From the NCBI GenBank assembly GCA_002269645.1, contig NIVC01004939.1:1-30694 (forward strand): 30,694 bases of DNA. The letters are read 5' to 3'. This DNA comes from Macrostomum lignano. Taxonomy: Eukaryota. The notes under the pieces were generated by a model. It saw only the letters and a program-made list of their open reading frames with translations. It did not search any database and was not told the origin of the DNA. Positions 4,498 through 27,543 of the stretch are shown piece after piece (the stretch's first letter is position 1; the number at the start of each line of letters is the position of its first letter). Position numbers and translations under genes: made by a program.

Positions 4498-4806
4498 TGA
4501 TGTTTCCTGTTTAAAACACAAAATCTAAAAATACTGCTTCAACAATCATATATTTAGAGCGTTCCTAAACTAAAGCAGCTGAGCCTGAGCCAGCCTTAAA
4601 TCCAAATATACAAAAAATGAAAAAAATTGCTTGCTTGCTATTTTCTAAATATGAAAACGATAATCATTAGGTTTTATTGAGAAACGCCATAGCTCCACTT
4701 GTAATAGCACAGTACATTACAGCAAAGGATAAATTTAGTCTGCACAGACAGCAGAAATACTAGAAAAATGCAGTTTATTAAAAACTTCACTAGACGACAC
4801 GAGAGG

Positions 4807-5644: not shown

Positions 5645-5880
5645 CTTTCCTGGCATCGTAGCAGCGCAAGCGTCCATCCAGACTAGCCGTATAGATTCGC
5701 CAGGAGTGAACAGCCACCGCCGTGACGGAGTCCCTGGCATCGGTGAGCAGCTGCACAGGCGCTTGAGCTTTACTGCGCAGATCCCACAGGCGGACTGTGC
5801 AGTCCACTGAACCGCTGGCCAGCAGGGTGGCGTCCGGACTGAAGTCCAATGCGCCAACTCGAGCCAGGTGGCTGCGGTAT
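5645..5880 (-). CDS. WDR83: WDR83/MORG1 exon 2
   Basis: Acceptor gcgcag|AT (phase 2), donor AAAG|gtgccg (phase 1). Encodes KYRSHLARV...SGSVDCTVRLWDLRS...DARDSVTAV...SLDGRLRCYDARKG. Confidence 0.93.
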
Positions 5881-6085
5881 CTGCGCAGGCAGGTGGACAG
5901 GTGGGGAGGACTCGATGCAGCATTTATTGGGATAAAAGAGACATTTAAATGGCATGAAGGACTCAGCGTATAACTACTGCAGTACATGGACTGGAGAACA
6001 TCGTAGGACTTAGACACAACAGTGCGTATGGACTCTTATGCATATGTCTAAATACATATGTAGACTTAAAGAAGTCTTATACCGG

Positions 6086-6420
6086 TAGATGACTGGAGAT
6101 TCTCAGATGACTGGGGACTCTCATAGATGGACTGGGGACTCTCATAGATGGACTGGGGACTCTCATAGATGGACTGGGGACTCTCATAGATGGACTGGGG
6201 ACTCTCATAGATGACTGGGGACTCTCATAGATGGACTGGGGACTCTCATAGATGACTGGAGACTCTCATAGATGGACTGGGGACTCTCATAGATGGACTG
6301 GGGACTCTTATAGATGGACTGGGGACTCTTATAGATGGACTGGGGACTCTTATAGATGACTGAGATTCTCATATGACTGGAGAGTCTTATAGATGCCTGG
6401 AGATTCTCTAAGATAGACTG
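6086..6420. repeat. 20-21-bp minisatellite (gatggactggggactctcata, ~17 units) in WDR83 intron 1
   Basis: Near-identical head-to-tail units in the centre, degenerate at both ends, no spacers. Confidence 0.95.
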
Positions 6421-6474
6421 GCCTTTCTAGAACAAACAGAAGACACTTAAAAAGCAAAGCCTCTAAGCCCTCAC

Positions 6475-6752
6475 TTTCGCACGGCGGTACCGCTAGCCGT
6501 GTCCCAATAAGCCACCATTTTATCCTCGCCCCCGCTAGCCAGATTGGCATTGTCGCAGGCGCAGGCCACAGCCAACACCTCCTGACCGTGGCCAAGATAC
6601 GACCTGAGCAGCAGGGATTTGGCTGGATTCCACAGCTTCAAAGACTTGTCCGCGCCGCCAGTAAGGCAGTAATTGCCGTCGGCGTTAAATCTGACGCAAC
6701 GAACGGCGCCCTGGCCGCACACTGTGCGGCATTGCAGCTGCTCTGGTGTTGT
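6475..6752 (-). CDS. WDR83: WDR83/MORG1 first coding exon (no in-frame ATG at its start)
   Basis: Acceptor tttcag|ACA at 6753/6752, donor AA|gtgagg at 6475/6474. TTPEQLQCRTVCGQGAVRCVRFNADGNYCLTGGADKSLKLWNP matches WDR83 CGQGAVRAVRFNVDGNYCLT. Exons of 278+236+443 = 957 nt give 318 codons plus stop. Confidence 0.92.
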
Positions 6753-6787
6753 CTGAAAGTTTTTATTTTAAAATTTTTGTGTGGTAC

Positions 6788-7175: not shown

Positions 7176-8205
7176 GTAGTGTATACGCATATTTTTAAAT
7201 GAAAAAGTGCAGTTGTAAAAACTTGCAGCATTTTGTCGGTAAAACTCCATGCATTAGATATGAATAAAATGAATTAACCTTTGATTTATTAATAATTTAC
7301 AATCAAGACAAACAACATAAATCAACAGTTTAAGATAGAATGGATCCGTCAAAATACTGCGTAACACTGGATGTTTCTTAAAACAATTTTTTTTCGCGAA
7401 AATCATTATTGAACAACAGGCTACATTTGGGAGTAACTAGAATTTCCGAATGTACAAAATTACGATTTTTAATAACAAATATTGTAAGATTATTAAATTA
7501 ATGTGTGGTAACTTGCAAAATAGAGTTGAGAGCAGATTGCTGACCCAAGTAAGCCAAGAACAAAAAGAAGCCATTTAAGATAAGAAAATCACTAATTGCT
7601 GTTCTTGATTACCATAGAATATTTTATTTAAGTCCAACTACTTACCGATCAATAAGCAAGTAGCATGCAACGAGAATGCTGTTTAAAAATTGAATAGACA
7701 CTAGTAGAATAATAAATCAATCATGCAAGTCAAAGTCTGTCTGCTTTTGTGAATTAAGAAATAAAAGTTCAAATTTGGAAGCTGAAAATATGTTTATTAA
7801 AAACTACAAGCACTGGCAATTCTCAGTCTTGAATACAAAAAAAATTTTCAAGGATTACTATCAAAGCATGCACATTGCACAAACACATCTCAATTCAGGG
7901 GTCCATTATTTGACAATTTAGACATCGTTTTAAAAAGGTCGAACGATTTTGTTTGTACGCAGTGCTGTACTCATACAGAGCGCTCACTCGGGGTGTACAG
8001 CGGCTTCTGTGTCTTAGGCTTGACCCTAATGGCTGTGAATCTCGTGAATCTCGTGAAACACAAATATTTAGAATCAAAATACGCACACCTGCAGACTATA
8101 AATATCCATATAACTGAAATAAGCCAGGCTAAGCAGTATAAAATGTTCAGCTACTTTTCCAACAGCATGGGGATCAGCTGAAGGAGCCGTCAGTTCATCT
8201 CAAAA

Positions 8206-8502
8206 TCAAACTCTGGCGGCTTCCGCCTGTCGCGCCACGCTGGAGCTGGATCCCCCGCTGCTGACGCTGCCGATAGCTGCTGCTCGCTTTGCAGCGGCTG
8301 CGGCGGCGAGAGCCGAGGCGTTGCGCTGGTGACTGGCCGTGGCTGCCGAGCGCAGCTGCGCCTCGATGCTCTGCGTCTCGTCAATGAGCATTCGCTGGCT
8401 TCGCTGCAGCAGCGGCTCCTGCAGTCGGCAGTGCGCGTGGTGACGCAGGTAATAGCCGAACCAGAAGCGGAGGAACTGGGCCGAGTGCTGCGGCTTCAGA
8501 AC
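8206..8502 (-). CDS. MTMR2: Myotubularin-related phosphatase, exon 3 (last)
   Basis: Acceptor accccag|GTT (phase 0). VLKPQHSAQFLRFWFGYYLRH resembles MTMR2 [21 protein letters not shown]. Ala/Ser-rich tail, TGA at 8206. AATAAA on the minus strand at 7793-7798. Confidence 0.88.
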   Translation of the reverse strand, partial: VLKPQHSAQFLRFWFGYYLRHHAHCRLQEPLLQRSQRMLIDETQSIEAQLRSAATASHQRNASALAAAAAAKRAAAIGSVSSGGSSSSVARQAEAARV

Positions 8503-8528
8503 CTGGGGTGAATAGGGGAAGGTGATGG

Positions 8529-8537
8529 ATCTATCTG

Positions 8538-8573
<36 letters not shown>

Positions 8574-8606
8574 CCTATTTATCTATCTACCTATCCACCT
8601 ATCTCT
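8529..8606. repeat. (CTAT)n microsatellite in myotubularin intron 2
   Basis: Long perfect ctat run with degenerate flanks. Confidence 0.93.
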
Positions 8607-8644
8607 CATATCAGTGAGTACCTCAAGCACTAAACTAAGCTCAC

Positions 8645-8966
8645 CTGGTAGCGGTTAGGTGCGTAATGCGGATTAGTGTAGTCCATGACAGCAGAATTGA
8701 CAACAGACCAGAGCGAGTGCGTGTGCGGCCGAATCTTGGCCCTCTCCTGGTCGCAGTTGCCCAGAAAGGTGCCGAACCGATTACTATAGAGATGCTCCAA
8801 GATAGTAATCAGCAGGTGCTCGTTAAACTCGAAAGCATTTGGGAACTGCTGGGTGAGCTGCCAGACGCACTCGATGAACTGCAGGAACACCGGAGACCGC
8901 TCGCTGTCAGACGGGTTGTCCTCTAGGAAGCCAATTCTCTTGCCAAACTGGTGACCCATTGAGCAC
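8645..8966 (-). CDS. MTMR2: Myotubularin-related phosphatase, exon 2
   Basis: Acceptor ggcaag|G (phase 2), donor CAG|gtgagc. Encodes [13 protein letters not shown]...[26 protein letters not shown]...[13 protein letters not shown]. Confidence 0.93.
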
Positions 8967-9156
8967 CTTGCCGGTTAGTTTGAGTAGAGTGTATAATGTA
9001 ATTATTCATTAGACGCAGAGAAGCATAAACTGCCCAAGGGATCCTTGGGATTTAAGAGTTCTACCAATTGTCAAATTTGAGTAAATCTGTACATATTGGA
9101 GTGTGCAGATCTCTGCAAATTCTGAGGGTTAGTGAGGCTCAGCACTTTAGATGGTA

Positions 9157-9455
9157 GTGGTTTGTAGCCTAGTGGTTTAGAGCATCGGATTCACGACTCA
9201 AAGGTTGGGGGTTCGATTCTCGACCCACTCTGAACAATTTGTGTCCTTGATTTAGAAAGACACTTATTACTCTGCATTGCTTCAGTTCACCCAGCTGTAA
9301 AATGGTTACCAGCATTAGCTAAGGGTAATTGAGGATGTGTGTGGCGACCCACCAGTCCTTGGACTGAACAGCCGTACGCAGCCTTAGCTGTTGGTTGCAC
9401 GTTTGCTCATGAAGGCAGGTGTAATCAATTGTTATTATACAATAAATTATTGCAA
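9157..9455 (+). mobile_element. tRNA-derived CORE-SINE in myotubularin intron 1 (antisense to the gene)
   Basis: Pol III A box tagcctagtgg (9165-9175) and B box ggttcgattct (9210-9220). Then tgtgtccttg...aagacactta...tgcttcagttcacccagctgtaaaatgg (~9239-9306), resembling the MIR CORE (tgtgaccttgggcaagtcactta...tgcctcagtttcctcatctgtaaaatgg). AT-rich tail. 3' end approximate. Confidence 0.75.
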
Positions 9456-9592
9456 ATCGTTAAAAGGCGAGCTACCCACGAGAAATCGATCGGGAGAAGA
9501 GAGTTGCTGGTATTTTATTTGATTTTGAACTAATATGTACTTTTCCATTAGAGAATCAGGCATTGAAGTGTTTTCATCATAAAACTACTCAC

Positions 9593-10971
9593 CACTCTTT
9601 CTCAATGAGAGCCTCAAAGCCTTTCACAGTACGATAGTACGGATCCAAGCACAGCATGGACAGGGCAGTCAGCTGAGCAGTCCGATCCCAACCATCCGAG
9701 CAGTGCACCAGCACCGAATACTTCTCCGATCCGACTTTGTGCACAATGTACACAACTCCAACTAGAATTTGTCTGATATGTCCCAGCCATTGGGTGTTCT
9801 CTAAGCAGCTCAGAAACCTCACAGACTCCAATGCTGGCCAGCAGATCTCTCTCAACTTTCTAAGCGACTCGCGCATCACGTGAATGTTCTGAATATCTAC
9901 GAATGCCACCTCAACGCTGTTGTTATAATCCGCCACGGCTTCGTAGCCGCCACCTTTGCCTCTGTTGGCTACGGCGTTAGTCTTCGGTCTGGCATCGATA
10001 ATGCACAGCGATGTTGTCTGTCCATTGTTATTCAGTATCTTGGCAAGAAACCGTTCGTCTTCTTGGCAACGTTTGCCAGACAGGCCAACCATAGGCTGGG
10101 AGCATCTGGTGATTGATGCCCTTGTGTCTCTGTCTAACCAACTAAGAACTGGCACCCTGCTGCGGCTTCTGTAGGCGGCGCATTTGCGCAAATCTTCATC
10201 AGTAATCTCCGTTGGAATAGCAAACAGTTGCGGATAAGTTGGACAAAGACTATAGTCTCTATTCAATTCACAAACTTTCCAAACTGAGCCTTGAGTTTTA
10301 ACGCCTAATCGTTCAAATTCGGCCATAGGATTGTACACGTCCCAGCCTTGCTCCGTGAGCTGCGGCATGGCGTTCCAGTAGTCTATGGCAAAGAGTTGCA
10401 GATTGGGACCGAGACTGCAATTACCGCTCGGCCTGAACGTCAGTCCTTGCAAGCGTTCAAATATGTTCTGACGGGAATTATTCGCCGTGGAAGTTTTACT
10501 CAGCTGTAGGCGGAGCGAGAAGAAATCTTTGCACGTGACCTCGATGCCATATTTGTCTCCACGGCTGCTGGCGCCGCCAAACTTCTCCAACTTGTTGATG
10601 CTGCCAAGTGGAATGTCAACTGTTTCTAGAGGACTCTTAGTTGAGGAAAAGTGCAAGCGATAGTTAGTTACTAACAGACTGCCCATGATAGCTCGCTCAT
10701 TCAGTGGCTCCACCTTGGACACGTACTGCTCACTTTCCTCAATGGTGATGTGTCGTACTTCTCCTGGAAGCAAATCCACTTCAGGGAAATTCATTCTGCC
10801 ACCGCTGCCTCCTGCGGCTCCACCGCCGCCAGCTGCACCGCCACCTGCGCCCCCACTTCTGCCAGCCGGGCCCACACTTGACAAAGAAGATTCTGAACGT
10901 CCAGACGGAGTTGCAGCTCTGGGCAACTGGCCGCCACTGTTAGCAGCTTGCTCAACTGTCTGATTTGACAT
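9593..10971 (-). CDS. MTMR2: Myotubularin PI(3)P/PI(3,5)P2 phosphatase (MTM1/MTMR1/MTMR2 group), exon 1: PH-GRAM plus catalytic domain
   Basis: ATG at 10971. LCPTYP, YRSRSRVPVLSW, RCSQP, DARP, IQNIHVMRESL and an intact active-site loop VHCSDGWDRTAQL. Donor TG|gtgagt. Exons of 1379+322+297 = 1998 nt give 665 aa. The exact paralog name is uncertain. Confidence 0.95.
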
Positions 10972-11759
10972 TTCTATAATTGATCTGCAAGTAAGTCAAT
11001 CGATTATCTAAAGCAGCTGATATTTCTATATACATGTAGGTAGGTATCATAAGCACACCACAATAAACATATTTTGGTGCCCCCTATAGGAAAAAGTTGT
11101 AAAACCACAGACGGCATCCAATGCATTTTTGAAATTTTTCTAAAGCACAGTGCCCTTTCCTGCTGGCTACTTCTCCAGCAAATAAATATATATAGAAGGG
11201 CCTAATGCCTCTGTGGAAGGGGCCTATACACTTGTTATTTATAATGCTTAGAGATGTTCTGAAATTTTAATTTCGATTTTCTAAATTTCAGAATTTTTAA
11301 GAGTAAATTTCAATTCCAAAAAATCATCCAATTAAAAATCTCTAAAAAGTGGCTAAATATAAACTGATTTATGCTACATATACATGTATTTTGTTTTGCA
11401 TGAGCATAAAAATAAAAAAGTGAGTTTTAAAGCATGCATCTGCAGGTTTTCAACATTTATTCCAATAGGGTTGGTGCCTAAGACAGATATTCCTAGATTT
11501 AACAGGTACAAAAATGTGCATTTGCCAGGACGTTTAAAGTAATAGCATGCATTAAGTTGCTATTTAAATAAATTTAAATAAATATCATGTATCAAGGCAA
11601 TCAAATTTTCAATGTTATTTCTATATTATAGCTATATTATAGCAGCTATATTATATACAGACTATAATTGAATTCAAATTCAAATAGTGCTATTTTGTCA
11701 AATGAAAGCCGATTGTCAAATAGTCATAGAAAATAATCATTTTAATAATATATAAACAT

Positions 11760-11960: not shown

Positions 11961-12009
11961 TTTTATTCACTTTAATTTTCATAGTTATCAGACCTATAAT
12001 AATAAGCAT

Positions 12010-15000
12010 GAGGCTGAGCTAGTGGATCAGTTCACTGTGAGAGTGCGAATTTCTTAGTTGGCAAGAGAACAGCTCATCCTAGTGCGACAACTGAATCTGA
12101 CCATAGTGAGAAGGGCCATGCTATGCCTTGAGACAGCAGCTAGCCTGGCTCAGCAAGTAGCACTGCTATCAGCAAGACATATCCAGGTTCTCAATGATAA
12201 CAACAGTTAGACACCCACTGGGGTGCAACACAATAGCAAGTCATCTCAGCCTGAAGAGAACTGGTTGCATGAAATGATAGAACAGCAAGCTGAGACCCTG
12301 CAAGAGCAACAATGACTTCTGGAAGCTTTGAGCAATGAGCTGTATTTTGATGAGTTCTATTTGATGGGATTGTGCAATAATGACACCTAGGAGCATTGGG
12401 AACTAGCTCACCAACAGCCGCGAGACTTGTGGGCCTAGCGCAACCAATGATTGGCACCCTCGTCTCCTTGCCACAGTGCCAACAAAGGCACCCAATTAGC
12501 AATACCTGGCACACAAATTGTGCAACACAACCAGTTCCATTGACTTTAGCAACTGCAAGATGGTAGCAACCTGCCGCCAAGAATGCCACCAGCAGGTCAA
12601 TATTGATAGCAAGCCAACACCAAGCTGATGGGATCTAGAACCCTATTGGCTATTTCTCCCAGCAACTCAAACTGCCCAAAGCCCAATATCCAATCACGAA
12701 ACAAGAACTCTTAGTAGTTGTAGATAGAATGTGACGCTTTTGCTTCTACCTGCTAGCCAAGAAATTGCCAAACTGATCTGGCAGACCTAGATCCTGAGGC
12801 AAACTCAGCAAGTAGGCATCTTTGGATGATGGCTACAGTGCCTAAGCAAATTTAAGTTTGAGATCCAGCATTGCAAATCAAGTCAGCATCAGAATGCTAA
12901 CAGTCTCTAAAGATGGCCCCAAGGATGACACCAAAAACATGGAGGAGGCTCAGTGCAGATAGCAGACAAGAATTAAAGTAAGCAGCCAGCCACAAAATCT
13001 AGCACAGCGACACCGAAGGTCGTCGATATCAGCCACTTTAGCCCTCCACTGTGCAAGAAGCCATTAACTTGCTGCAAGCAATAAAGGCTGCCAACGAAGC
13101 CAAAAAAGTCCAACAGCACAACCAAGGCTATGCTGCCAGCAACATTGCCAGCCAATAGCAAGCCACTGACAGAGCTGCACCCACCGGCAACAAAGCTGAG
13201 GCCATCAGCCAGCCATTACTAGGACTCGCAATAATCACCTACCAGCTTTAGTAGCATGACATGTTGCCTGTCTAGGAGCCACCAACTACTAGCTGAAGGT
13301 GACGAGGACAGCAACCACAGTATAGCCCGAGATAACTAATGCCAACCCACTTGCTGCCCTAAGTTTGAGAAGAGAGTGAGGTTCAGTTCTTGCACCTCAT
13401 TATCTGCTAACAAATTCAAATCCAAAGATAGTGACACCGAAGCTACCAACAAAGATTGACCTTCGGGCACCTCAACAACATGTCAATTGGTCCAAGTAGT
13501 GGTCATGCAGAGGGAGCTCTAGACCCCTAACCATGCTGTCATAGCCAAAGCTGCACCAATTAAAATTCTACTAACAGACGCCAAACTTTAAATTTAACTG
13601 ATTACATCCCAAGGCCAGTCACTCACAAGGAGCTCCAGACCTATCAGCATGCTAACTTTGCCATCACTATGGTGATCAACCTAATCGAAAATTGACAACC
13701 AAAGCTGCTGCTAAATCAGTGATTAAATTTGACAAGTGACAAACAAAATCTACTAGCATTTTATAAGCAACTTGAAGTCTGAGACAGGACTGCTATGTTG
13801 GCAAGGAAGAGACAGCATGAATCATCCTGCCAAAGAGCCTTAATGCCACTGTTTGCCAACCTACATGGTTTACTCTATTGTGGACACATGGGCCAAGACC
13901 TTACTATTACTGGGCCCTATTAGAGACCCAATGGACTGAGGCAACAAGTACATCTTGACCTACATCAATACCATGTCAAAGTATCTATTTGCCTAATTGC
14001 CTTCACTATAAAAGATCAGTGCACCAAGACAATCATCACTCTCCTGCAAGAACAAGGCTTCCTGATCAATAGAATCCCCATGTGGATCCATTCAGATCAA
14101 GGCAAACAGTTCATAGGACACAAGTTCTGACATTTCTGCGAGGTCTATGGTATCCAGTAGACAACAATGCGCCATACTTGCACTGGGCCAATGGGCAAGC
14201 TAAATTGTGCAATAAGAACATTAAGAAAGTGCTTACTTGTCTCCTCAAAGATCATCAACAATGAGACAAGATGCTACTAGCTGCTTTGACCATACTAAGG
14301 TCAGCCATCAACCATACTACTGGCAACCAGTCTATTGAGTGTCTTATTGGTACCACAATCAATAACACCCTAGACTGCCTGGACAAATTGGCTGATCTCC
14401 TAGAGTATATCACCAAGCATTAGCACAGACTGGCCAAGACAGAGTGAATTGTATGACAACGACTGCAAGCTAAGATCTAACACCGAGAAGAGTATTACAA
14501 AAACTGACCAAAGCCCATGGAACTGCAGCCTGGAGACCTAGTCTGCCTAGCCAACCTGGAGCTTGAGTTGGGAAAGCTGCCCAAGTTCTACTAGCCATAC
14601 AAGAGCATGTACAAGGTCACTAAAAAGGTTGGCAAAGTAGCCTACTGGATCAAGCCTGCAACAGCCCAACAAGGATGCCTAGCAAAGATGTTTATCCATC
14701 GAAACAATATCATCAAGGTGCCGCAGATGATGGCAGACCCACCGGAGGAGTTGCCATGCAAAACTGAGTAGCCTATGCTGCCCTACAAGTCGAGCCTTGA
14801 AAGCAAAGCCAATCAGCCAATCAGCCCATTCCAGAGTAGCCAGCCGCAGATCAGCCTGACCCGTGAGGCAGCCAGCTGTTTGAGCCAAGCCTCTGCCATT
14901 TAGAAGTGCTACCCAAAGGCAACCTAGATCTGCTTGAGATTGGCATAGAGGTTGAAATTTAGAGGTTAAGTCAAGCAGCAAGGTTAAGTTACCAGCAATC

Positions 15001-17899
15001 ATTGTTGCGCCTTGTTGTCAACTATTGATATACATTACTATCAGTAGTCAAGTTTGCAAATAAATTTTAATTTAATTTGCTGCTGCCTACTTATATATGC
15101 TGAAAGCTGAATTTTTATTTTCTGTTTAATTTGACCTTATGCTTTAAGGTAAAAGCAGCCAATTTTCTTGTCATTTTCCCATGCTTGAAGGCAAAAGCAA
15201 CCAATTTTTCTGTTCAACTTGGCCTTATGCTTGAGGGAAAAAGCAGCTTTTATTAAGCTTATGCCATTTCTTTATGCCTTCTAGCTAAAAACAGCATTTT
15301 CCTTTGAGCTGTTTCAGTGCTTGTGTACATTTTGCATTTGCTTTTTATCCAATGCATTATAGTAAACCAGCACCTTGCACTCTAATATTTAGCCTTAGGC
15401 TTTATATTAGAAGCCCGTACCAATGCGTCAATATTTAACCAATTTGATATAATACCATTGCTTAATTGCATTTTTGCATGTCCCTATTTCATTCTGAGCT
15501 TTCTTTGCATGCAATCAAAGTGTGGAAAGTATCCTTTCTTTTCACCTTAACCTTATGCTTTTGGGAGAAAAGCAACAATTTCTATAAACCTTGCAGTTTG
15601 ATTAAAACTGAAGATATCTATGCAATTTTGCGAGACTACTGTTTGAAGGACCATATAAACTTTTGCCCTGCTCATGTAATAAGGCCTTGTTTCTGGCCAT
15701 GTCCTCAGAAAAGGGCATCTGAGATGACTCAAACCCTGTTCCTTGTCACAATTTTGCACAAGCTTAGGAACTCTGAGGGCCACCAGTTTGGCTTTTTTCC
15801 TAGTGCCTTTTGCTAGCCCCTGTTTAATGTAACTCCTTATAGAGCCCCTTCCTCATGCATGACATATCAGTTAATAACCTACTATTATTAAAATATCATT
15901 AGTAAGGTGCCTACAATTGCCTTTTACTATTATAATATTTTTCCTCAACTTAATGTTTACACATTCAGCCTCCCCCTAAACACTAGTTCATATAAGATGA
16001 AGGCCTTATTCCTAGTATGGGACCTTCCTTTGTCTATCTGCAAGACACCATCTTAGTATTAAAGGCTGTTTTTTAACTTTGATTGCTTATTATTATAAAT
16101 TATTCTGTGCCACACTATTATCTAAATCTGGCTAATTTCAAGTTTAATTTCCCTACATAGACTGTCAACTCCTCTTTGTTTTCATTCAATCTTGTTATTG
16201 TATACCCTTGTGAGTTTCTGCAAAATTTCTGACAACCCAATGTGGAATGGAGCTGCCCAATTGCTGCATTTGGCTCCCCATGACTAGCAAGACTTTGCCA
16301 ATAATCCCCTGGTGCACTGCAATTACAATGCCTTATTGACGCCTACCCAACCTTGAGTCTAGCTAAGTCAATGCCCAAATTGGTGGCTATCTAGTCTAGG
16401 ACACCTTGGCTTTGTCTAGATAAGGCGGCCACTTTGCACACCTTCATGACTAGGCAGTATATCAGGCCACTAGAAAGGGACGCATGCAACTTATCCCAGC
16501 TGGCGAATGCTCTGTGGGTTCATGCTATTAGAATTAACCAAGGATCTCCTTGTAGAACAACTCACGTTTGCCAAGGAATATCTATGGCACAGACTGGGCT
16601 GACTACATCCAGCTTTGGCTTTACTCATGGCCTTAGCCTATTTGGAGGCCGGCTATTTCTAGGGAGGCTGGGACCCTAGGCTTTGCCGATTCTGGGATTC
16701 TGCAGTGGAGAAGTGCCCTGAGCATTTGCATTTCGATATAGCTGGCCAGGTCTATATACTCAGATAGCCAGTAAGTTTGCTTGCTGCCACTGCCCAACCT
16801 TGGACAACATGAGGTGAGGCCCAGAGCAAACCAGCCTGGAACACATGGCCTGTGGTCTGAGGTGGTCAAATGCCCACTAGCCAAGGTGGACACAACTGAG
16901 CAGCAGACTGCTAATATTTGTTAACAAGCTTATAGCCACCCAATGCATGTGTTAGTTGGTTGCCATTGATTATTAAGAGACTGATTTAATAGTTTAATTT
17001 TTTATCTTCTTTGAAAATGCATCTGGTATCTAGCCCTGGAGCTAATTTTCCTGCTCCCGGGCAATTTTGTCATTTTTCTTGTCTTATTCATGGCATAGCA
17101 TTTGTCTTCTCAATCCCTAGTCTTTCCACTTCTTTGTAGTAGATCTTTTTGTTTTCTCCATTCAATCCTATATGTTATTTTGGTATCTATGCCTTGTTGT
17201 CCTTTCTCAGTCTATTTTGTCCCTTGCCTGACCCAACTGTTGGTGCTTGTTTTTATCCTATAAATATTGCTTACTTTACATGCTATTGAATTATTCTCTA
17301 TCTTTCCCTTTTCCTCTCTTGTTTGTTTCACCTTTTCATCTTTTGGTTTGATCAATTAGTTACTTATATTTTGCTTTGACTCAAAGATCCCTACTTGAAT
17401 ATCTTGCTCTTTAATATGCATTCATATTTTAGCCCACACCATGGCTCTGTTAGAACATCTCTATTGCAAGAAGCTTATTTCTTAAACTTGCTAAATAGCC
17501 ACTAATAAGAATATTATGCCAACATTTATTTCATTAATTACTCAAAGCCCATAGCTTTATCTCGAGTTATTTGCCCATGGGGCATAAAACAACCAAACAG
17601 TTCTTATCTCAAAGAAAGTTCTAAGACTAATTAGTTCTATAATATGAAAATTACAGTGGTGGCAACTCTTTTCTATTGATAATAATTAGCTAAGCAAATC
17701 AATGTACATTAAATTATGATGTTAAAACTCTAGTGTCTACCATTTGAATTACCATGCCTATTAAATGACTGCTTGACTACAATTACAACTACCTTCCCCC
17801 TGGGACTTGAGGACTTGGCAGCCAATGTAAAACAGGAGAAAATCTAGTTATGATTTGTCTGTGTAATTTTCTAGTTTTTTTATGCAAACTTAATGCTAG
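12010..17899 (+). mobile_element. Old, 5'-truncated, internally deleted Ty3/Gypsy element related to the young copy: gag remnant, RNase H-linker-integrase remnant, repeat-bearing UTR, ORF3 remnant, most of the 3' LTR
   Basis: Collinear with 19400-20000 (12010-12610), then 22183-24760 (12612-14970), with matching UTR blocks. Many stop codons. The 3' LTR starts at cc|tgtggt (16851), and 17570-17890 aligns with the young LTR 3' half. Confidence 0.9.
16851..17899 (+). repeat. Degenerate 3' LTR of the old Gypsy element (5' part, interrupted at CTAG)
   Basis: Starts tgtggt like the young LTR. ttgcccatggggcataaaacaaccaaacag...atctcaaagaaag and gactacaattacaactaccttccccc...ttgaggac match young LTR blocks. 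Confidence 0.75.
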
Positions 17900-18787
17900 T
17901 GTGGTAGGCCGGTCTACCACTGGGGTGAACGACGGCAGATCTCCCGCGGGCAACGACATGAGGACGGCCGGACAGATTGACATCATTTTTTTTTCAACTT
18001 TTGTTCCCTGGTTTGTTCCCCCATTTGTTCCCGCCCTTGCTCCCTCGTCTGTTCCCTTTTCTGTTCCCTCCCTTGGCCCCTGTTGTTTTAATGTTTCCAG
18101 CAGCCGGGTTTTCCTCTTTTTCCCTTCGTTGTCCCTTCCCTTGTCCCATCCTCTGTCCCACCCCTGGGATCCTTCACGCCAATATGTTATATATGAGTTA
18201 TCTCTGGAGTCATTTTTTTAAAGTGTGTGTGTTTGTTTGGGTTTTAGTTTAGTTAGTTTCTGCTCTTGTCTCTGCTTGTTCATCTCGCGTAGTGATAATA
18301 ACTAACCGTAATAATAATTAACGAAATAATAATAAGTTTGCAACATTTAATATTTATTCAGTTGTTCAGAATCGAAGCCTTTAGTTTTCTATTGAGTCAT
18401 TTGCCCGCGGGGCATAAAATAACCAATCAGTCTCATCTCAAAGAAAGCTCTGAGACCCTAAACATTCCGTAAAACGACATTTATGGTGGTGGCAGCGCTA
18501 CTTTACTACTGAGAGTAACACAACTAGCAATTTTGACAAACTATAATTTTTCGGTGTCTGAGGACCTAATTTGAATGACCCGGGCCGCTACAGGACCACT
18601 CGACTACGATTACGACTACCCTCCCCCGGAATTGAGGACCCGGCAGACGGAGTAACCTAGGAGAAGAATCAGCGCAGCAATTTGTGCAATTTTCCGGCTT
18701 TACATGCCAACGACAAACCCAAATTTTTTATTCTCCCTAATCTTACAATTTCAAATCTTGTTTATTTTCTTCACCACCCCCACCTCA
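17900..18787 (+). repeat. 5' LTR (888 bp)
   Basis: TGTGGTAGG...CCCACCTCA termini. About 98% identical to 26653-27539 by manual comparison. Confidence 0.96.
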
Positions 18788-18854: not shown

Positions 18855-20219
18855 ATGGCTTCAACTACTAATTCAACGGCCGCGGATGCGACAAACGACG
18901 CTGCGGGCCCCGACAACTCAAATACAAGACCGACCTACGACAAGATGATTGGACTGGAGCAGACCAGCCTGGGCCAGCCGCAACACCATCATCATGTGTA
19001 CCAGCAGCCCCAGCAGCAGGATCGAGCTCCAGCGCCAAAACCGGTCAAGATTCAGCAGTACACGCCCAACCGGGAATTCGACGTCTGGATCAAGGCTCTC
19101 GAAGAGCGATGCGAGCTCAACGGAATCGTTGACAACAGACGAAAGAAGGCGGACGTCCTTGTGAATTTGGACATCGCCACCACCTACCCCGCAGTTGTCA
19201 GAATGGAGCTGCCAGATAATCTGACGTTTGGTGAGTTCAAACAGCGATTATCTGAATGCTTTACACATGTTGCCGACACACTGGAGTACTGGGAGCAGTT
19301 CCGAAGCTGCCAGCAGGGCAAGAACAAGAATGTTGACGACTACAGCGACCGACTAATTGCTCTGGCTGATCGAGCGTTCCCACATTTTACCCCGGTTCAG
19401 AAGCAGGCTGAACTGGTGGATCAATTCACTGTGGGAGTGCGGATTGCTCAGTCGGCCCGAGAACAGCTCATCCTGGTGCGACTGCCGAATCTGACCGCAG
19501 CGAGGAGGGCCATGCTACACCTGGAGACAGCAGCTAGTCTGGCTCAGCGTGTAGCACCACCGCCAGCAGCGAGGCATGTCCGGGTCCTGGAAGATGACGA
19601 CAGTCAGACGCCCACTGCGGTGCAACATGACGCCAAGTCATCTCGGCCTGAGGAAAACTGGTTGCGGGAAGTCATGGTACAACAAGCCGAGACATTGCAA
19701 GAGCAGCGACGCCTACTTGAAACTTTGAGTAACGAGATGCGAGAGTTCTACTCTCGGGGATCGCGCGATAACGACGCCCTGGAGCCATGGGAACCTCGCC
19801 ACCAGCCGCGGGACTTGTGGGGCCAACGCTCCAGATGTCTGGTACCCTCGACTCCTTGCTGCAGCATCGACGGAAGTGCCCAATTTACGACACCTGGCAC
19901 GCGTATGGTGCCGCAGCAACCGTTCCATCAACTTCAGCAACCACAAGACGGCAGCAACCTGCCGCCGAGAACGCCGCCAGCAGGAGGTCAACGTCAGCAG
20001 CAGCAGCAGCTGCAGCAATGGTCGAGTTCGAGGCCGCCGCCCTATCAGCTGCGGCAGCAGAATGCCATGTGTTACAGGTGCAATTGCGAGCACCGCGCCG
20101 ATGAGTGCCTGCACCGACGGTCGGCCAGCACCGCATCCCAGCGCAACAGCAGCTCGGGAAACGGGACGGCTGGATGCGCCATCGGGGGCAGCGCCATCCA
20201 GCAGCCGAGCCAGCACTGA
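18855..20219 (+). CDS. gag: Gag (capsid-like helical domain, Q-rich region, one Zn knuckle CYRCNCEHRADEC)
   Basis: 454-aa ORF following the PBS, with a retrotransposon-gag-like core (FDVWIKALEERCELNGI...YSDRLIALADRAFP...LVDQFTVG). Confidence 0.9.
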   Translation: MASTTNSTAADATNDAAGPDNSNTRPTYDKMIGLEQTSLGQPQHHHHVYQQPQQQDRAPAPKPVKIQQYTPNREFDVWIKALEERCELNGIVDNRRKKADVLVNLDIATTYPAVVRMELPDNLTFGEFKQRLSECFTHVADTLEYWEQFRSCQQGKNKNVDDYSDRLIALADRAFPHFTPVQKQAELVDQFTVGVRIAQSAREQLILVRLPNLTAARRAMLHLETAASLAQRVAPPPAARHVRVLEDDDSQTPTAVQHDAKSSRPEENWLREVMVQQAETLQEQRRLLETLSNEMREFYSRGSRDNDALEPWEPRHQPRDLWGQRSRCLVPSTPCCSIDGSAQFTTPGTRMVPQQPFHQLQQPQDGSNLPPRTPPAGGQRQQQQQLQQWSSSRPPPYQLRQQNAMCYRCNCEHRADECLHRRSASTASQRNSSSGNGTAGCAIGGSAIQQPSQH

Positions 20220-23200
20220 AGTCCCCGCCGCGGACTTTAGTCACTCAGCAGGCCACTGCTGAGACCGCCTCCGCTGCACCTATACAGCCATTAGCACCCA
20301 AGCGACCTCGGAGAGACCCGTTTCTAACTGGTGAGATTCAGGGCCGCTATTTTGCTTTCTTGCTTGATACCGGGTCCAAGTGCGAAGTCCTAGGATTCAG
20401 CACCTGGCACCGCCTATGTACTGACGACCCGACCTTGCGTGGCCAAATCGAGCCCTGCCTTCAACGTATCGTGACCTACAATGGAGAGCCTATTCAAATG
20501 GCAGGCCAGCTATCTATTAAAGTGAAAATTGGTAATTTCGAGCCTACAGTCAAGTTTCTGCTAGCAAAAGGATCGCATGACAACATTCTGGGTTTCGAGT
20601 TCCTGGAGAAGTACAGCACATCACTGGACCTCGCCGCCGGAATGCTGTTTTTCAAGGACGGCACTGCCGCACCACTTCGCTATATGCGAACTGAAGCTAC
20701 AACGTGCAGAATTTACACCGCCGAGAGCACTACGGTGCCACCATTATCATCTGCCCGAATCAAAATCAAATTAGCAAAAGGACAAAAAGAAAACCAGGAT
20801 ACACCCGCAGTGATCGAGCCGCTGAAACCGGCTCGGCGTGAAGAAGATGTGCAGCACCTGGACGCCACGCCTGCCCTGATTTCCATGGCTAATGGAGAAG
20901 GCGCTATCAAAATGATCAACCATGGTACTACAGCCATCAAAGTGCGAGCGAATGCCCTAGTCGGGATTGCTAGACCAATCAGACTGCCCGAGCTACATTT
21001 CTTCCCGCTGCTGAAATCAGAAGACTCTGTCAATCAAATCCAAGACAAGGATCCCGATGCCTGGATTAAGGAGATTGATATCAGTGAGGATCTTTCCAAA
21101 GACCAGCGCGCTCAAGTCATTGAGCTATTGAGAAAGTACAAGACCATCTTCTCGCAGGGGCCACACGATCTCGGCCGAACTCATCTGGTCACCCACAACA
21201 TCGTACTGAAGGACAAAGATCCGGTGCATCTCCCAACGCGAAGGATCCCGCCGCACCTGCTACCCAAGGTGGACCAGTTACTCGACGATCTGCTGGCCAA
21301 AGGCGTGATTCGACTGAGCTTCTCCAGCTATAACACCCCGCTGGTGATCATCCCGAAGAAGGACGGCAGCCTACGAATTGTGCAAGATTTCAGGAGTCTG
21401 AATCAAAAGTGTGAGTACTTTCCGTACTCGATTCCTAACATCCAAGAAGCATTCGCTAGCCTCGAAGGAAGCCAGCTATTCAGCACGTTTGACTTGAACA
21501 GCGGCTACTATCAGATTCCACTGCGTCCAGAGGATCAAGAGCTGACTGCCTTCGCCACGCTGCACTGCGGACAATTTGCCTACAATGTTATGCCTATGGG
21601 ACTAAGTTCAGCTCCAGCTAGCTTCATGCGACTGATGAACGCTGTGCTCAACGGGATCGCCTACAAAAGTGCAATAGCCTATCTGGATGACGTCATCGTC
21701 TACTCTAAGAAATTCAACGATCACCTACAACATATGGAAGAAGTTTTCAAACGGGTTCCAGAAGCAAATCTAAAGTTCAAAGGCAAGAAGTGCCATCTAT
21801 TTCGGGCCAGTATAAACTATCTGGGACATGTGGTAACAAAAGATGGAATCAAGACCGACCCAGCTAAGATCGAAGCGATTCAAACCTGGCCAAGACCAAG
21901 GACAGCTCGCCAACTTAAAAGTTTTGTCTGCACGTGCGCTTATTATGCCAAATTCGTACCTAGCTATGCAGAACTTGCTGCTCCGCTCCACGATCTGATT
22001 AAGGAGAAGAGGATTAGAAACTTGAATTGTCTATGGGGAAAAGCCCAGCAAGATGCGTTTGATCAGCTCAAGGCCGCAATGACTTCGACGACAGTGTTTG
22101 CGTATCCGCAGTTCAGTGAAGATCCGGATGTAATGTTTATCCTGGACACGGATGCTTCTGCAACCAGAATCGGAGCCTGTCTGAGCCAACGCCAAGCTGA
22201 CGGAGTTGAGCGACCAATTGGCTATTTCTCCCGGCGACTGAAACTAGCCGAAGCCCGATATCCGATTACTAAACAGCAACTCTTGGCAGTCGTAGATGGA
22301 ATGCGACACTTCAGATTCTACCTGCTGGCCAAGAAGTTTATCTGCCGAACCGATCATGCCGCATTAACCTGGATCTTAAGGCGAACTCAGCAAGAAGGAA
22401 TCTTCGGACGATGGCTGCAGAGACTAAGCAAATTTGAGTTCAAGATCCAGCATCGCAAATCGAGTCAGCATCAAAACGCCGACAGTCTCTCGAGACGGCC
22501 GGAGGACGACGCCGAATGCTTGGAGGAGGCTCAGCGCAAGGCAGCTGATGAGGACCAAAGTAAGCAGCCAGCCGCGATAACTGGCGCAGCAGCGCCGAAG
22601 GTCCACGACAGCAGCCACCCTAGTCCTCCACCGAGCAAGAAGCCGTCGACCCGCTGTAAGCGACAGAAACCGCCAACTAAGCCGAAGGAGTCCAACGGCG
22701 AGGCTACGCCGCCAGCAACCCCGACAGCCGACAGCAAGCCGCTGACAGAGCTGCACCCGCCGGCGACGAAGCTGAGGCCATCAGCCAGCCGTTACGATGA
22801 CTCGCAGAGGTCGCCTACCAGTTTTAGTAGCACGACATGTTGCCCGTCAAGGAGCCGCCGACTACTAGCTGGAGACGGCACAGACAGCGACCACAGCGCA
22901 GCCAGAGAGGACAGCTGCCAACCCGCTCGCTGCCCAAAGTTTAAGAAGGTGAGATTCAGCAGCGACGCGGACAGCTCTGCTGACTCATCATCAACTGCTG
23001 ACCGATCTGAATCCGACAACAATGACGCCAAAGCTACCGACAAGGATCGACCTTCGGGCACATCAACGACCCGGCAACCGGCCAGAGTAGCGATCGTGCG
23101 GAGGGAGCTCCAGACCCCGAACCATGCCACCATAGCCGAAGCCGCGCCAACTAATTTGACTAATCGACGTTCAACATTGAATCTAACTGATCACATCCCG

Positions 23201-24742
23201 AGGCCAGTCACTCGTGAGGAGCTCCAGACTCATCAGCGTGCTGACTCTGCCATCGCCATGATGATCAACCTTTTGGAAAGCCGACAGCCAAAACCGCCAC
23301 TAAATCAGCAATTGAATATGACGCGAGACGAACGAAACTTACTAGCGTTCTACGAGCAGCTCGAAGTCCGAGACGATGGACTATTAGTTATTCATCTCGA
23401 CGATATTGGCGAAGAGGAGAAAGCGCGGATCGTTCTGCCGAAGAGCCTCGACCCCACTGTGTTTGCCGACCTGCACGGTTCGCCCTACTGCGGACACATG
23501 GGCCGAGACCTCACCATCGCAAAGGTGCGCGAAAGGTTCTGGCGACCTGCCCTGGCCAAGGCAGTGTCCGACTATGTTGCTTCCTGCCAGACCTGCACTC
23601 AAAGCAAAGGATGGCGACGAATTCCGGCGCATGTACAGTCGTTTCCGGTCTGCAAAATCTATGGGCAATGTGCAATCGATATCCTGGGCCCCACTGGAGA
23701 CCTGACAGACTGAGGAAACAAGTACATCCTAACCTACGTCGATACTACGTCGAAGTATCCATTCGCCTTCGCCATGAAAAATCAGCGCACCAAGACAATT
23801 ATAACTCTGCTGCAGGAACAAGTCTTCCCAATCACCGGAATTCCCGCGTGGATCCATTCGGACCAAGGCAAGCAGTTCACTGGGCACGAGTTTAGACATT
23901 TCTGCGAAGTCTATGGCATCCGGCAGACAACGACGCCACCATATTCGCCCTGGGCCAATGGACAAGCTGAATCGTGCAACAAAAACATCAAGAAGGTGCT
24001 CACTTGTCTTCTCGAAGATCATCAACAGTGGGACAAGATGCTGCCAGCCGCTTTGACAGCCCTGCGATCAGCTGTCAATCGTACGACGGGATTCTCGCCG
24101 CATTACGTCGTCTACAGAGTGCCTTATTGGTACCCGATCGATAACACCCTAGACCGCCTGGACGTATCTCCGGACATCCCCGAGTACATCGCGAAGCATC
24201 AGCGCAGACTGGCCGAGACCGAGAGAATTGTGCGACAGTGATTGCGAGCCGAGATCCAACGCCGCGAAGAATACTACGAGAACCGACCCAAGCCCGTGGA
24301 ACTGCAGCCCGGAGATCTGGTCTGCCTGGCCAACCCGAAGCTCGAGTTGGGTGAGCTGCCCAAGTTCCACCGGCCATACAAGAGTATGTACAAGGTCAAC
24401 AGAAAGGTCGGTGAAGTAGCTTATTGGATCCAGCCAGCAACTGCCCGACGAGGACACCCCGCCGAAATGTTGGTACATCGCAACAACATAATTAAGGTGC
24501 CGCAGATGATGGCGGATCGACCACAGGAGCCACCGCGCCAAACAGAGCGGCCAATGCTGCCCTATGAGTCGAGCGAAGACAGCGAAGTCGACCCAGCCAA
24601 TCAGCCCACGCCAGAGCAGCCGGCCACAACTCAGCTAGACCTGCGAGGCAGTCAGCTGTTTGAGCCAAGCCTCCGCCATCCGGAAGTGCTCGCCGAAGGC
24701 GACCCGGATCTGCCTGACATCGGCATGGAAATGGAGATCTGA
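20105..24742 (+). pseudogene. pol: Pol (protease, RT, RNase H, long disordered linker, integrase) broken by two in-frame TGA codons
   Basis: LLDTGS (PR), FDLNSGYYQI, MPMGL and YLDDV (RT), DTDAS (RH), H-X6-H...C-X2-C and IDILGP/SDQG/NGQAE (IN). Stops at 23711-23713 and 24239-24241. ORFs 20105-23713, 23774-24241 and 24242-24742 share one frame. Confidence 0.95.
20156..20202 (+). promoter_or_regulatory. -1 programmed ribosomal frameshift signal (G GGA AAC plus hairpin)
   Basis: Heptamer GGGAAAC at 20156-20162 in the correct gag phase. A 6-nt spacer precedes an 8-bp perfect stem gctggatg (20169-76)/catccagc (20195-202). Pol is in the -1 frame. Confidence 0.88.
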
Positions 24743-24892: not shown

Positions 24893-25290
24893 TTTCCAGT
24901 TCAATTTTATTTTCCTTATGCTTGAGGGATAAAAGCAACAAATTTTCTGTACTTTCCTTATGCTTGAGGGCAAAAGCAATTAATTTTCTGTACTTTCCTT
25001 ATGCTGAGGGCAAAAGCAACTAATTTTCTGTACTTTCCTTATGCTTGAGGGCAAAAGCAATTAATTTCTGTACTTCCCTTATGCTTGATGGCAAAAGCAG
25101 TGTTTCTCAATGTACTTTCCTTATGCTTGAGGGCAAAAGCAACTAATTTTTTTTTCCATTTCTGCTCCTTACGCTTTCCGGTCAAAAGCCTTTGTACATT
25201 GTGCTCATGCTCAATTGGTGCCCATATTTATTCAACGCGACCTGCACTTCTGCGTTCTGATATTTAGCCTTAGGCTTGATGGGAAAAGCC
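24893..25290 (+). repeat. 41-bp tandem array plus dispersed copies of the core motif CCTTATGCTTGAGGGCAAAAGC in the pol-ORF3 spacer
   Basis: Six tandem units (ttttctgtactttccttatgcttgagggcaaaagcaactaa) at ~24900-25150, plus variant cores near 25168 and 25269. Confidence 0.92.
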
Positions 25291-26089
25291 AGCACCTACG
25301 CGACAATTACTTATCCGCATGCAATTCATTAATTTGCTCAATTGCGTGTCATTAACTTTGCGAAGTTATATTTCAATCGTAAACCTTGCAGTCCTTGCTT
25401 GTGGCTGAAGGTATTTTTTTTAATTTTTGCAAGCCAATGTTGCTCTGGTGCCACAGTCGTTTGCCCCGCTCAGGTCTAGCCACCCTGGCTCTAGGCCTTG
25501 TCCTCAGCGGAGGGCATCTGAGGTGAACGGCCCCCTTTTTCTTTGTTCTGACCAAGCCGAGCCTGGGAAAATTTGTAAGGGCGCCTGTCCAGCCCCTTCC
25601 TAGTGCCTTTTGCCGTTTTGTGTAACTCCTTATGGAGATCCAAATTCTAACTCAGTCACTATGCCTGTATCTATCTGCTATTCTAATTTTTAGGAACTAC
25701 CTATGTTCTTACTATTTTTCTAAACTACTGTTTATGCGAATGTTCAGCCCCCCCCCTCTCTCTAACCGCCAACCTGTTTTGTGAGCCGTGTGAGGCGCCC
25801 CATTCATTCATTCTGATTTTGGACCCCTGCCGCGCGGTTATCTATTTTATGACTCCTTGATTCATGCGCCCATCCCAACTCTGTGTGCCACCTTAGAGTG
25901 CACGGGGGTGATGGCTCAATTCCAGTGGTTGAATTTTATTTCCTCTGGTTGGTTTGGAATTCCACCAGTTGGAATATTTTGCACCTATTTTAGGGGCCAT
26001 CTTCAATTTTATTTTCTCCAATTCTGTTGATCCGACCTGCTAAGCTAAATTTTCTTCTGGACACTCGCATTACGTCTCGTCGCAGCTCT

Positions 26090-26521
26090 ATGGCTAACAA
26101 TTGGTCCAACTGCGACAATGTCTCTCCAGAGATGCAGACAACCGCGCCCTGGCTGTCCACCAATGAAGCTGACACCCTGCGGGCCCTGGCCACTGCCCCA
26201 AGCGGCGCGGCCCCAGCTCGCGAACAGCTCCGCCGCGCGCTCAACGAGGCCTACCACCAGGCGGACGACAAGGGCCGCGTTCAAGTGGATGCCCCATGGC
26301 AGACACTCTGTCGCGAAATGCCGCCCGTGAACACGAGGGAGCTCCTCGATGCGACGCTGCGGCGTGTAGATGCCTGCTTTCGCAAGGGAGGACGACCCCG
26401 GCCTGCCCTCGCCCTATTTGTCACGCTGGCTTATTAGGAGGCGGGCCACCTCCAGAACGGATGGCTGCCAGAGGTCCGCCAGTTCTGGGAGGCCGCCATC
26501 GAGAGGCACCCGGAGCCTTAA
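26090..26521 (+). pseudogene. Accessory ORF3 of the Gypsy element (unknown function, not env-like), with an in-frame TAG at 26435-26437
   Basis: ATG 26090 follows a candidate acceptor cgcag| (26084-85). MANNWSNC...PALALFVTLAY*EAGHLQNGWLPEVRQFWEAAIERHPEP. A homologous peptide is readable in the old copy at ~16370-16722. Confidence 0.7.
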
Positions 26522-26652
26522 ATGGGCAGCGCCTGCAGCTTCTTGACCTTCAGCCCGAGCCTGCGCGTGGCCGGCTGGCGAAGCAGGACTGCCGCCCCTG
26601 AGATGTCCGGGAGTTCGTCTGTCTGCTGCCATTCGCCCCGGCGCCCCGCGCC

Positions 26653-27539
26653 TGTGGTAGGCCGGTCTACCACTGGGGTGAACGACGGCAGATCTCTCGC
26701 GGGCGACAACATGAGGACGGCCGGACAGATTGACGTCATTTTTTTTCAACTTTTGTTCCCTGGTTTGTTCCCCCGTGTTGTTCCCGCCCTTGCTCCCTTG
26801 TCTGTTCCCTTTTCTGTTCCCTCCATTGGCCCCTGTTGTTTTAATGTTTCCAGCAGCCGGGTTTTCCTCTTTTTCCTTCGTTGTCCCTTCCCTTGTCCCA
26901 TCCTCTGTCCCACCCCTGGGATCCTTCACGCCAATATGTTATATATGAGTTATCTCTGGAGTCATTTTTTTTAAAGTGTGTGTGTTTGTTTGAGTTTTAG
27001 TTTAGTTAGTTTCTGCTCCTGTCTCTGCTTGTTCATCTCGCGTAGCGATAATAACTAACCGTAATAATAATTAACGAAATAATAATAAGTTCGCAACATT
27101 TAATATTTATTCAGTTGTTCAGAATTGAAGCCTTTAGTTTTCTATTGAGTCATTTGCCCGCGGGGCATAAAATAACCAATCAGTCTCATCTCAAAGAAAG
27201 CTCTGAGACCCTAAACATTCCGTAAAACGACATTTATGGTGGTGGCAGCGCTACTTTACTACTGAGAGTAACACAACTAGCAATTTTGACAAACTATAAT
27301 TTTTCGGTGTCTGAGGACCTAATTTGAATGACCCGGGCCGCTACAGGACCACTCGACTACGATTACGACTACCCTCCCCGGAATTGAGGACCCGGCAGAC
27401 GGAGTAACCTAGGAGAAGAATCAGCGCAGCAATTTGTGCAATTTTCCGGCTTTACATGCCAACGACAAACCCAAATTTTTTATTCTCCCTAATCTTACAA
27501 TTTCAAATCTTGTTTATTTTTTTCACCACCCCTACCTCA
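26653..27539 (+). repeat. 3' LTR (887 bp)
   Basis: TGTGGTAGG...CCTACCTCA, an 8/9 terminal inverted repeat, followed by CTAG. Confidence 0.96.
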
Positions 27540-27543
27540 CTAG

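What the first reader, a model, noticed from the sequence alone, without database searches (positions are those of the whole stretch)
26040..26601. Non-env accessory ORF3 shared by both Gypsy lineages, in the env position with a splice acceptor
Seen: young APWLSTNEADTLRAL / NTRELL / GRPRPALALFVTLAY*EAGHLQNGWLPEVRQFWEAAIERHPE aligns with old TPWLCLDKAATLHTF / TKDLL / G*LHPALALLMALAYLEAGYF*GGWDPRLCRFWDSAVEKCPE (16401-16722). Peptide similarity persists where the nucleotides have diverged, and the young TAG aligns with TTG(Leu). A branch-like ctaa, a pyrimidine tract and cgcag| precede ATG 26090. There is no signal peptide, furin site or long TM segment, and the product looks small and helical. 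Inference: a selected, probably subgenomically spliced accessory protein of unknown function. An anti-silencing factor is one hypothesis given the mutational pressure seen here.
Basis: partly seen in the sequence, partly recalled or inferred. Interest (0 to 1): 0.72.

Follow-up and report, generated by a model that had tools for sequence, protein, structure and literature searches.

The report
Retrotransposon with two interchangeable accessory genes
A family of jumping genes in a flatworm carries a conserved extra gene with no known relatives, and many of its subfamilies exist in two versions that are nearly identical except for which of two different extra genes fills that slot, so the two proteins likely work together to regulate their own subfamily.

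Summary
The ORF is real. The window copy is broken, but 106 matches exist in this genome. Open copies show dN/dS median 0.22, with 0 of 254 pairs at 1 or above. No relative was found outside the species. The predicted fold is a helical bundle with no clear match.

Splicing is not supported. A TATA-type internal promoter precedes 32 of 41 intact copies, against 0 of 41 control windows.

New: this gene ('A') is one of two alternatives. A different gene 'B' (acidic region plus helical domain) fills the same slot. Eight of 29 LTR subfamilies hold both versions, including all five with at least 5 copies. Partners share promoter, Arg/Gly tail, U3 and pol (97.8% versus 84–85% between subfamilies). 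A natural A+B fusion exists.

Best guess (0.4): a two-part, subfamily-specific regulator supplied in trans. Function is untested. The scan had noted other third genes in this genome (J-domain, RING) but not this one.

The parts
17900..18787 (+). 5' LTR of the young element (TG...CA); 4-bp target duplication at 17896-17899 and 27540-27543
   Evidence: LTR pair 97.9% identical
18855..20219 (+). gag-like ORF
   Evidence: 88-95% aa identical in most sister copies
20105..24742 (+). pol (protease, RT, RNase H, integrase), with two in-frame stops in this copy
24905..25150 (+). array of about 41-nt repeats after pol, shared across subfamilies and by A and B types
   Evidence: folding not better than shuffles (z -0.9)
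25865..25993 (+). predicted internal promoter: conserved upstream motif (25895-25904), paired TGG-type sites (about 25920-25972) and TATA-like box (25986-25993, degraded in this copy)
26090..26521 (+). ORF3 type A, broken copy (in-frame stop 26435-26437, early end at 26519-26521); predicted helical bundle plus beta-hairpin in intact relatives
26522..26601 (+). Arg/Gly-rich tail of ORF3, out of frame in this copy; shared by A and B partners of a subfamily
26653..27539 (+). 3' LTR; U3 defines the subfamily; no polypurine tract before it
16401..16722 (+). frameshifted type A homologue in the older element into whose 3' LTR the young element inserted

Best explanation
This is a broken copy of a selected third gene ('A') of a Macrostomum Ty3/Gypsy clade, and many LTR subfamilies of that clade exist in two versions that share gag-pol, upstream region, Arg/Gly tail and LTR but carry either A or a different gene 'B' in this slot; both are likely transcribed from an internal TATA promoter, and the two proteins likely act together in trans as a subfamily-specific regulator. 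Shown: selection on A and B, the shared flanks, the A/B pairing and a natural A+B fusion. Inferred: template switching between co-packaged A and B genomes keeps everything but the non-homologous core alike. Inferred: B supplies an acidic, proline-rich activation-like arm and A a helical adaptor, each with a basic tail for nuclear or RNA targeting. Inferred: mutual need keeps both versions as the subfamilies diverge.
For: Purifying selection: A median dN/dS 0.22, 0 of 254 measurable pairs at 1 or above (29 open copies, 406 pairs, 143 saturated); B 0.33, 0 of 256. Both types occur in 8 of 29 U3 clusters, 7 of 10 with at least 3 members and 5 of 5 with at least 5; best A-B U3 identity is 88-99%. 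In 7 of those 8 pairs, identity runs up to about the start codon, and in all 8 it resumes in the tail (the eighth A copy has its promoter deleted). Integrase region: median 97.8% for A-B pairs with the same U3 (12 pairs) versus 84-85% between U3 clusters. A and B identities correlate across 8 pairs (r 0.68, p 0.0008). One A subfamily ends with the last residues of the B domain, a recombination trace. A natural in-frame A+B fusion exists. Both types include copies with stop-free pol frames of at least 1500 aa (5 A, 7 B). B N-terminal part: 14-22 acidic versus 1-6 basic residues and 15-23 prolines in the 6 examined. Promoter: 32 of 41 versus 0 of 41 control windows.
Against: No function was tested and no RNA start was seen. 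21 of 29 U3 clusters show one type only (each has 1-3 copies, and sampling was partial). The A/B correlation drops to r 0.50, p 0.07 when two close sister pairs are removed. Internal promoter and own U3 share no clear private motif (own U3 ranked first for 2-3 of 14 subfamilies), so a Tas-like shared target site is not shown. Neither fold resembles a DNA-binding family. The TATA pattern was designed after seeing the data. Many copies are probably duplicated haplotypes, so counts overstate independence.
Confidence: 0.4

Rival explanations
1. A and B are alternative, each self-sufficient accessory factors (possibly ancient paralogues) for the same job, kept as a balanced dimorphism because the host targets whichever is common.
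For: They fill the same slot with the same promoter and tail, and both types have stop-free pol. The A and B models share 12 of their top 50 VIA-align entries. hhalign returns the same 67-column register with and without tails.
Against: Core homology is not significant without the tails (E 0.41, no better than reversed or shuffled controls). dN/dS shows no diversifying signal. A fusion of two redundant genes would have little reason to stay open.
Confidence: 0.25
2. A and B are antagonists (activator and repressor, or poison and antidote) that control copy number; the host-fixed A-only and A+B loci would be co-opted restriction factors.
For: The fusion (3 copies) and one A-only gene (3 copies) are each one old locus with homologous flanks, decayed or missing pol, an open ORF and retained CpG (fusion pS 0.02-0.03, pN 0.003-0.007). 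Both are annotated gene models.
Against: No direct sign of opposite effects. CpG retention does not differ between A and B elements (p 0.40).
Confidence: 0.15
3. ORF3 is a Rev/CERV-like RNA export or packaging factor that binds the repeat array after pol.
For: Arg/Gly-rich tail, and a conserved repeat array upstream.
Against: The array is shared across subfamilies whose A proteins are only 43-64% identical, and it folds no better than shuffles. It does not explain two types.
Confidence: 0.1
4. One reading: a single spliced ORF3 acting as a VANC-like anti-silencing factor.
For: Strong CpG decay of old copies. 5mC, DNMT1 and DNMT3 are reported in this species (PMC11292947, passage). Protein and U3 are subfamily-specific.
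Against: The acceptor is not conserved, a promoter is present, and putative RNA contigs are unspliced. No subfamily-private tandem target motif was found.
Confidence: 0.1

Closest known systems
Non-env ORF3s of bdelloid rotifer LTR retrotransposons (PMC5408684, passages)
   Same: Family-specific third ORF between pol and the 3' LTR; modular cargo.
   Different: Those are recognisable enzymes or membrane proteins, described as typically spliced. Here there is no family match, a likely internal promoter, and two alternative genes within one subfamily.
Oikopleura Tor3b/Tor4b env from an internal promoter (PMC4402516, passages)
   Same: Third ORF transcribed from a promoter after or within pol rather than by splicing.
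   Different: The Tor ORF is a transmembrane glycoprotein. Here the promoter is only predicted and the product looks soluble.
Foamy virus tas/bel-2 (PMC7828637, figure legends; cognate-site specificity recalled)
   Same: Accessory gene next to the 3' LTR, an internal promoter and a regulatory role.
   Different: No sequence or fold similarity found, no env, and no shared promoter/U3 site found. In foamy virus both genes are on one genome.
HERV-K(HML-2) type 1 and type 2 proviruses (PMC11379458, passage; the rec/np9 alternative is recalled)
   Same: Two co-circulating types of one family that differ at the accessory locus and are linked by co-packaging.
   Different: Type 1 is a defective deletion form. 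Here both types keep open pol and a selected gene of their own, and the pairing recurs in at least 8 diverged subfamilies.
VANC proteins of VANDAL transposons (PMC6719617, passages)
   Same: Family-specific accessory protein in a genome with DNA methylation.
   Different: DNA transposons, a single gene and private tandem target motifs; none of this was found here.
Plant Retand additional ORFs, TRP28 (PMC11963269, abstract)
   Same: Long pol-to-LTR region with tandem repeats and a conserved ORF of unknown function.
   Different: Those ORFs are antisense and carry a Pfam-type domain; no A/B pairing is described in the abstract.

Membership tests
Ty3/Gypsy LTR retrotransposon | PR-RT-RH-IN order, LTRs, target duplication | tested here: met
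   nearest outside pol 41-47% identical; clade within Ty3/Gypsy not assigned
Ty3/Gypsy LTR retrotransposon | polypurine tract before the 3' LTR | tested here: not met
   median 6 purines in the 15 nt before the LTR, maximum 10, in 83 elements
Env fusion glycoprotein | transmembrane anchor and large ectodomain | tested here: not met
   172-291 aa, hydropathy at most 1.62 in 44 ORFs; no Pfam hit in 18 members
Env fusion glycoprotein | signal peptide | not tested
   no predictor run; N-termini look polar
J-domain ORF3 of other Gypsy clades in this genome | DnaJ profile match with HPD and helices III-IV | tested here: not met
   no PF00226 hit; profile comparisons E 0.2-0.6; those elements have RT 39-44% identical to this one
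Spliced subgenomic ORF3 | conserved acceptor and a junction in RNA | tested here: not met
   10 of 32 leaders without YAG; no junction at 26086 among 15 listed joints (32 more not shown) and two contigs cross it (RNA status of the runs is a guess)
Internal-promoter accessory gene (Tor/foamy type) | conserved core promoter upstream of the ORF | tested here: met
   32 of 41 versus 0 of 41 control windows
Internal-promoter accessory gene (Tor/foamy type) | capped transcript starting there | not testable with these tools
   only contigs were available
Tas-like transactivator | cognate sites shared by internal promoter and U3 | tested here: inconclusive
   own U3 mean 9.0 versus other 6.5 shared 8-mers, ranks 1-11 of 14
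VANC-like anti-silencing factor | family-private tandem target motif and induced demethylation | tested here: inconclusive
   the repeat array is shared, not private; demethylation not testable
Any solved fold family | significant structural match | tested here: inconclusive
   best Z 6.9 (A; rmsd 3.0, 97 aligned) and 7.8 (B; rmsd 3.0, 79 aligned), in the range of generic helical bundles

The most novel reading that the evidence does not exclude
An LTR retrotransposon clade has a mating-type-like (idiomorphic) accessory locus. Every subfamily is a two-member consortium whose A and B genomes recombine everywhere except at this locus and must complement each other through a co-evolving A-B protein pair. 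The host has captured an A+B fusion and an A-only gene from it.
Probability: 0.3. Interest if true: 0.88.

Novelty: new variant of a known kind. Interest (0 to 1): 0.7.

Why it matters
Non-env third genes are known in Ty3/Gypsy elements. A two-version accessory locus kept through the divergence of at least eight subfamilies was not found in my paper searches. If the versions complement each other, this is a retrotransposon that behaves like a two-part virus, and it shows how diploid packaging can maintain cooperation between selfish elements. The host is a transgenic and RNAi-tractable model (PMC12801592, PMC5730564), so the question can be tested directly. Two protein families with no detected relatives, and two possibly co-opted loci, come with it.

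Tried and rejected
Family searches.
- Pfam: none for the window ORF or any of 18 A and 11 B members at a meaningful level.
- PDB sequences: best E 0.8. Phage collection: none. ESM Atlas: no usable hit for A or for the fusion.
- Profile searches of 1.84 billion representatives and of the 5.8-billion set returned only P0002 and P0003, both of this species. B returned nothing among the 7999 candidates scored; B was not run against the representatives.

Structure.
- Foldseek: no match at E 0.001 or better. VIA-align gave only generic bundles.
- Complex prediction of A with B gave no verdict: score 0.00, alignments not used, partner fold uncertain.

Homology ideas rejected.
- A truncated J-domain (a KxPE motif resembles HPD): not supported.
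- A-B homology at E 4e-7 came from the shared tails and vanished without them.
- No link to the ORF3s of sister families with 57-62% RT identity.

Evolution and layout.
- Fast adaptive evolution of A is rejected: synonymous sites are saturated too, even where RT+IN dS is 0.07. The cassettes are old and pol is exchanged.
- A master element with A and B in tandem is not seen: by contig coordinates only the three fusion copies have both within 3 kb.

Expression.
- No RNA holder is listed on record.
- No RNA test could be made on an intact annotated copy.
- The two gene-model ids were not found in papers or in the supplements of three papers.

Earlier notes: no sequence look-alike.

Full report
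Setting. The window holds a young Ty3/Gypsy element (LTRs 17900-18787 and 26653-27539, 97.9% identical, 4-bp target duplication) inserted in the 3' LTR of an older one. Pfam finds protease, RT, RNase H and integrase in pol. The old element aligns at 74-76% over pol and has lost CpG (C>T at 165 of 366 CpG sites, against about 10-13% at CC and CT). It is a decayed member of the same clade. Database names of two family members give the host as Macrostomum lignano.

Observation. The ORF starts at 26090, has an in-frame stop at 26435-26437 and ends early at 26519-26521. Its basic tail lies in another frame ending at 26601. The old copy is a frameshifted homologue. A protein search of the genome gave 106 matches of 130 candidates scored, many stop-free. 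I fetched 40 of these places as 10-kb stretches. Intact natural ORFs are 172-291 aa: a short disordered start, a core of about 135 aa and an Arg/Gly tail.

Selection. Among 29 open cores (406 pairs, 143 saturated), 254 measurable pairs give median dN/dS 0.22 and none reaches 1. Gag and pol are mostly 85-98% identical in protein between intact copies, while ORF3 is 38-56% identical outside the window's own subfamily. Synonymous sites of ORF3 are saturated even where RT+IN dS is 0.07. Pairwise blastn shows identity through gag-pol that ends before the cassette and U3. The cassettes are therefore old and ride on a recombining backbone; they are not evolving adaptively fast.

Family and fold. There is no Pfam, PDB, phage or Atlas match. 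Large profile searches return only two proteins of this species. AlphaFold2 on 18 natural copies gives six helices and a hairpin (mean pLDDT 75.6). Foldseek finds nothing and VIA-align only generic bundles. It is not env-like and not related to the J-domain ORF3s that earlier notes describe in more distant elements of this genome.

Expression route. The proposed acceptor exists, but 7 similar sites lie in the spacer. Across subfamilies whose spacers otherwise diverge, a fixed architecture recurs: an upstream motif, paired TGG-type sites and a TATA box 88-227 nt before the ATG. It scores in 32 of 41 distinct intact copies and in 0 of 41 control windows further upstream; the pattern was set after inspection. 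Ten of the 32 leaders have no YAG. The window's own TATA-like site is degraded. Contigs from two putative RNA runs cross 26086 without a gap, and no listed joint ends there (15 shown, 32 not shown). These contigs may be genomic RNA or DNA. An internal promoter is thus more likely than splicing; Tor env is a precedent (PMC4402516, passages).

The second gene. An RT search showed a tight clade (about 74 matches at 81-100%) and a gap to sister families at 62% and 57%. Of 40 further stretches fetched (28 from the clade, 12 from sister families), many clade members carry a different ORF, 'B', in the same slot: an acidic proline-rich region of about 100-125 aa, a helical domain of about 100 aa and the same kind of tail. 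Three B searches gave 58, 55 and 79 matches. B is also under purifying selection (median 0.33; 0 of 256 at 1 or above) and has no Pfam, protein or fold match.

Pairing of A and B. Among 106 A or B domains in my loci (a subset of all matches, with redundant haplotypes), 83 had a readable U3 and fell into 29 clusters. Eight hold both types, including all five clusters with at least 5 members; 21 small clusters hold one. Partners are 87-97% identical up to about the start codon, unrelated across the core and alike again from the tail on. Their integrase regions are 97.8% identical (median of 12 pairs) against 84-85% between clusters. A and B identities correlate over 8 pairs (r 0.68, p 0.0008), less so without close sisters (r 0.50, p 0.07). 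Both types include copies with stop-free pol frames (one search read). A-B core homology is not significant once tails are removed, though the two models share 12 of their top 50 structural neighbours.

Fusion and host-fixed loci. P0003 is an in-frame A+B fusion. Its three copies are one locus with homologous flanks, a decayed pol, an open ORF and retained CpG. The A-only P0002 shows the same pattern. Both are annotated gene models; that annotation is described as transcript-based (PMC5730564, passages). Co-option by the host is possible but unshown.

Mechanism. Shown: two selected, alternative genes in one slot of otherwise near-identical elements, repeated across subfamilies. Inferred from retroelement biology: two RNAs are packaged together and template switching homogenises all homologous sequence, while U3 is inherited with the adjacent cassette. 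Inferred: keeping both versions through repeated subfamily splits needs a selective reason. The fusion and the acidic arm of B point to a two-part regulator working in trans (0.4). Balanced alternatives (0.25), antagonists (0.15), RNA export (0.1) and a spliced anti-silencing factor (0.1) remain. A test for sites shared by promoter and own U3 was inconclusive, and CpG retention does not differ by type.

Literature. PMC12801592 (part 1 of 6 of the text, term search, and supplements searched for two ids only) classifies this species' LTR elements, and its main text has no occurrence of 'ORF' or 'accessory'. Its earlier classification paper was not seen, and its consensus supplements were not inspected for third ORFs, so they may bear on novelty. 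Searches listed no paper describing this gene or an A/B pairing. Closest cases are given under Closest known systems with what I saw of each; PMC10309623 (CERV) was seen as a search listing only.

Verdict. The feature is real and selected. Interest 0.7; new variant of a known kind, with a 0.3 chance of a categorically new two-member system.

Noticed in passing
window 26620-26675 and 83 clade elements: No polypurine tract precedes the 3' LTR. A C-rich run is followed by an LTR that opens with a conserved hairpin (z -2.9), so plus-strand priming may be non-standard.
   Followed up: partly
L065/L066/L099 and L073/L275/L276: A+B fusion and A-only genes fixed as three-copy loci with decayed pol but open ORFs; candidates for host co-option.
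   Followed up: partly
L161-L172: Sister Gypsy families (RT 57-62% identical) each carry their own third ORF with an acidic or disordered N-part and a C-terminal helical domain, unrelated to A, B or the J-domain ORFs by profile.
   Followed up: partly
L176:6428-7003 (oriented): A clade member with yet another 190-aa ORF in the slot that matches neither the A nor the B profile.
   Followed up: no
window 24905-25150: Array of about 41-nt repeats after pol, 1-13 copies per element, shared by A and B types and across subfamilies.
   Followed up: partly
L063, L075: Copies in which the promoter region is deleted and ORF3 follows the pol stop directly or nearly so, yet remains open.
   Followed up: no
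window 22500-23200: A long low-complexity Ser/Pro/Thr-rich insert of about 230 aa between RNase H and integrase in pol.
   Followed up: no
window 12000-15260: The old copy shows raised C>T at CpA (76 of 343) as well as at CpG, suggesting some non-CpG methylation.
   Followed up: no
window 8200-10995 (-): Host gene whose translation looks like a myotubularin-type phosphatase (label recalled, not tested); exons at 9589-10995 and 8630-8974.
   Followed up: no
window 4800-6770 (-): Host WD40-repeat-like gene in several exons (label recalled, not tested).
   Followed up: no
window 2055-4118 (+): Non-LTR retrotransposon-like RT fragment with C-terminal C2H2 zinc fingers, preceded by a 12/24-nt repeat (label recalled, not tested).
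   Followed up: no
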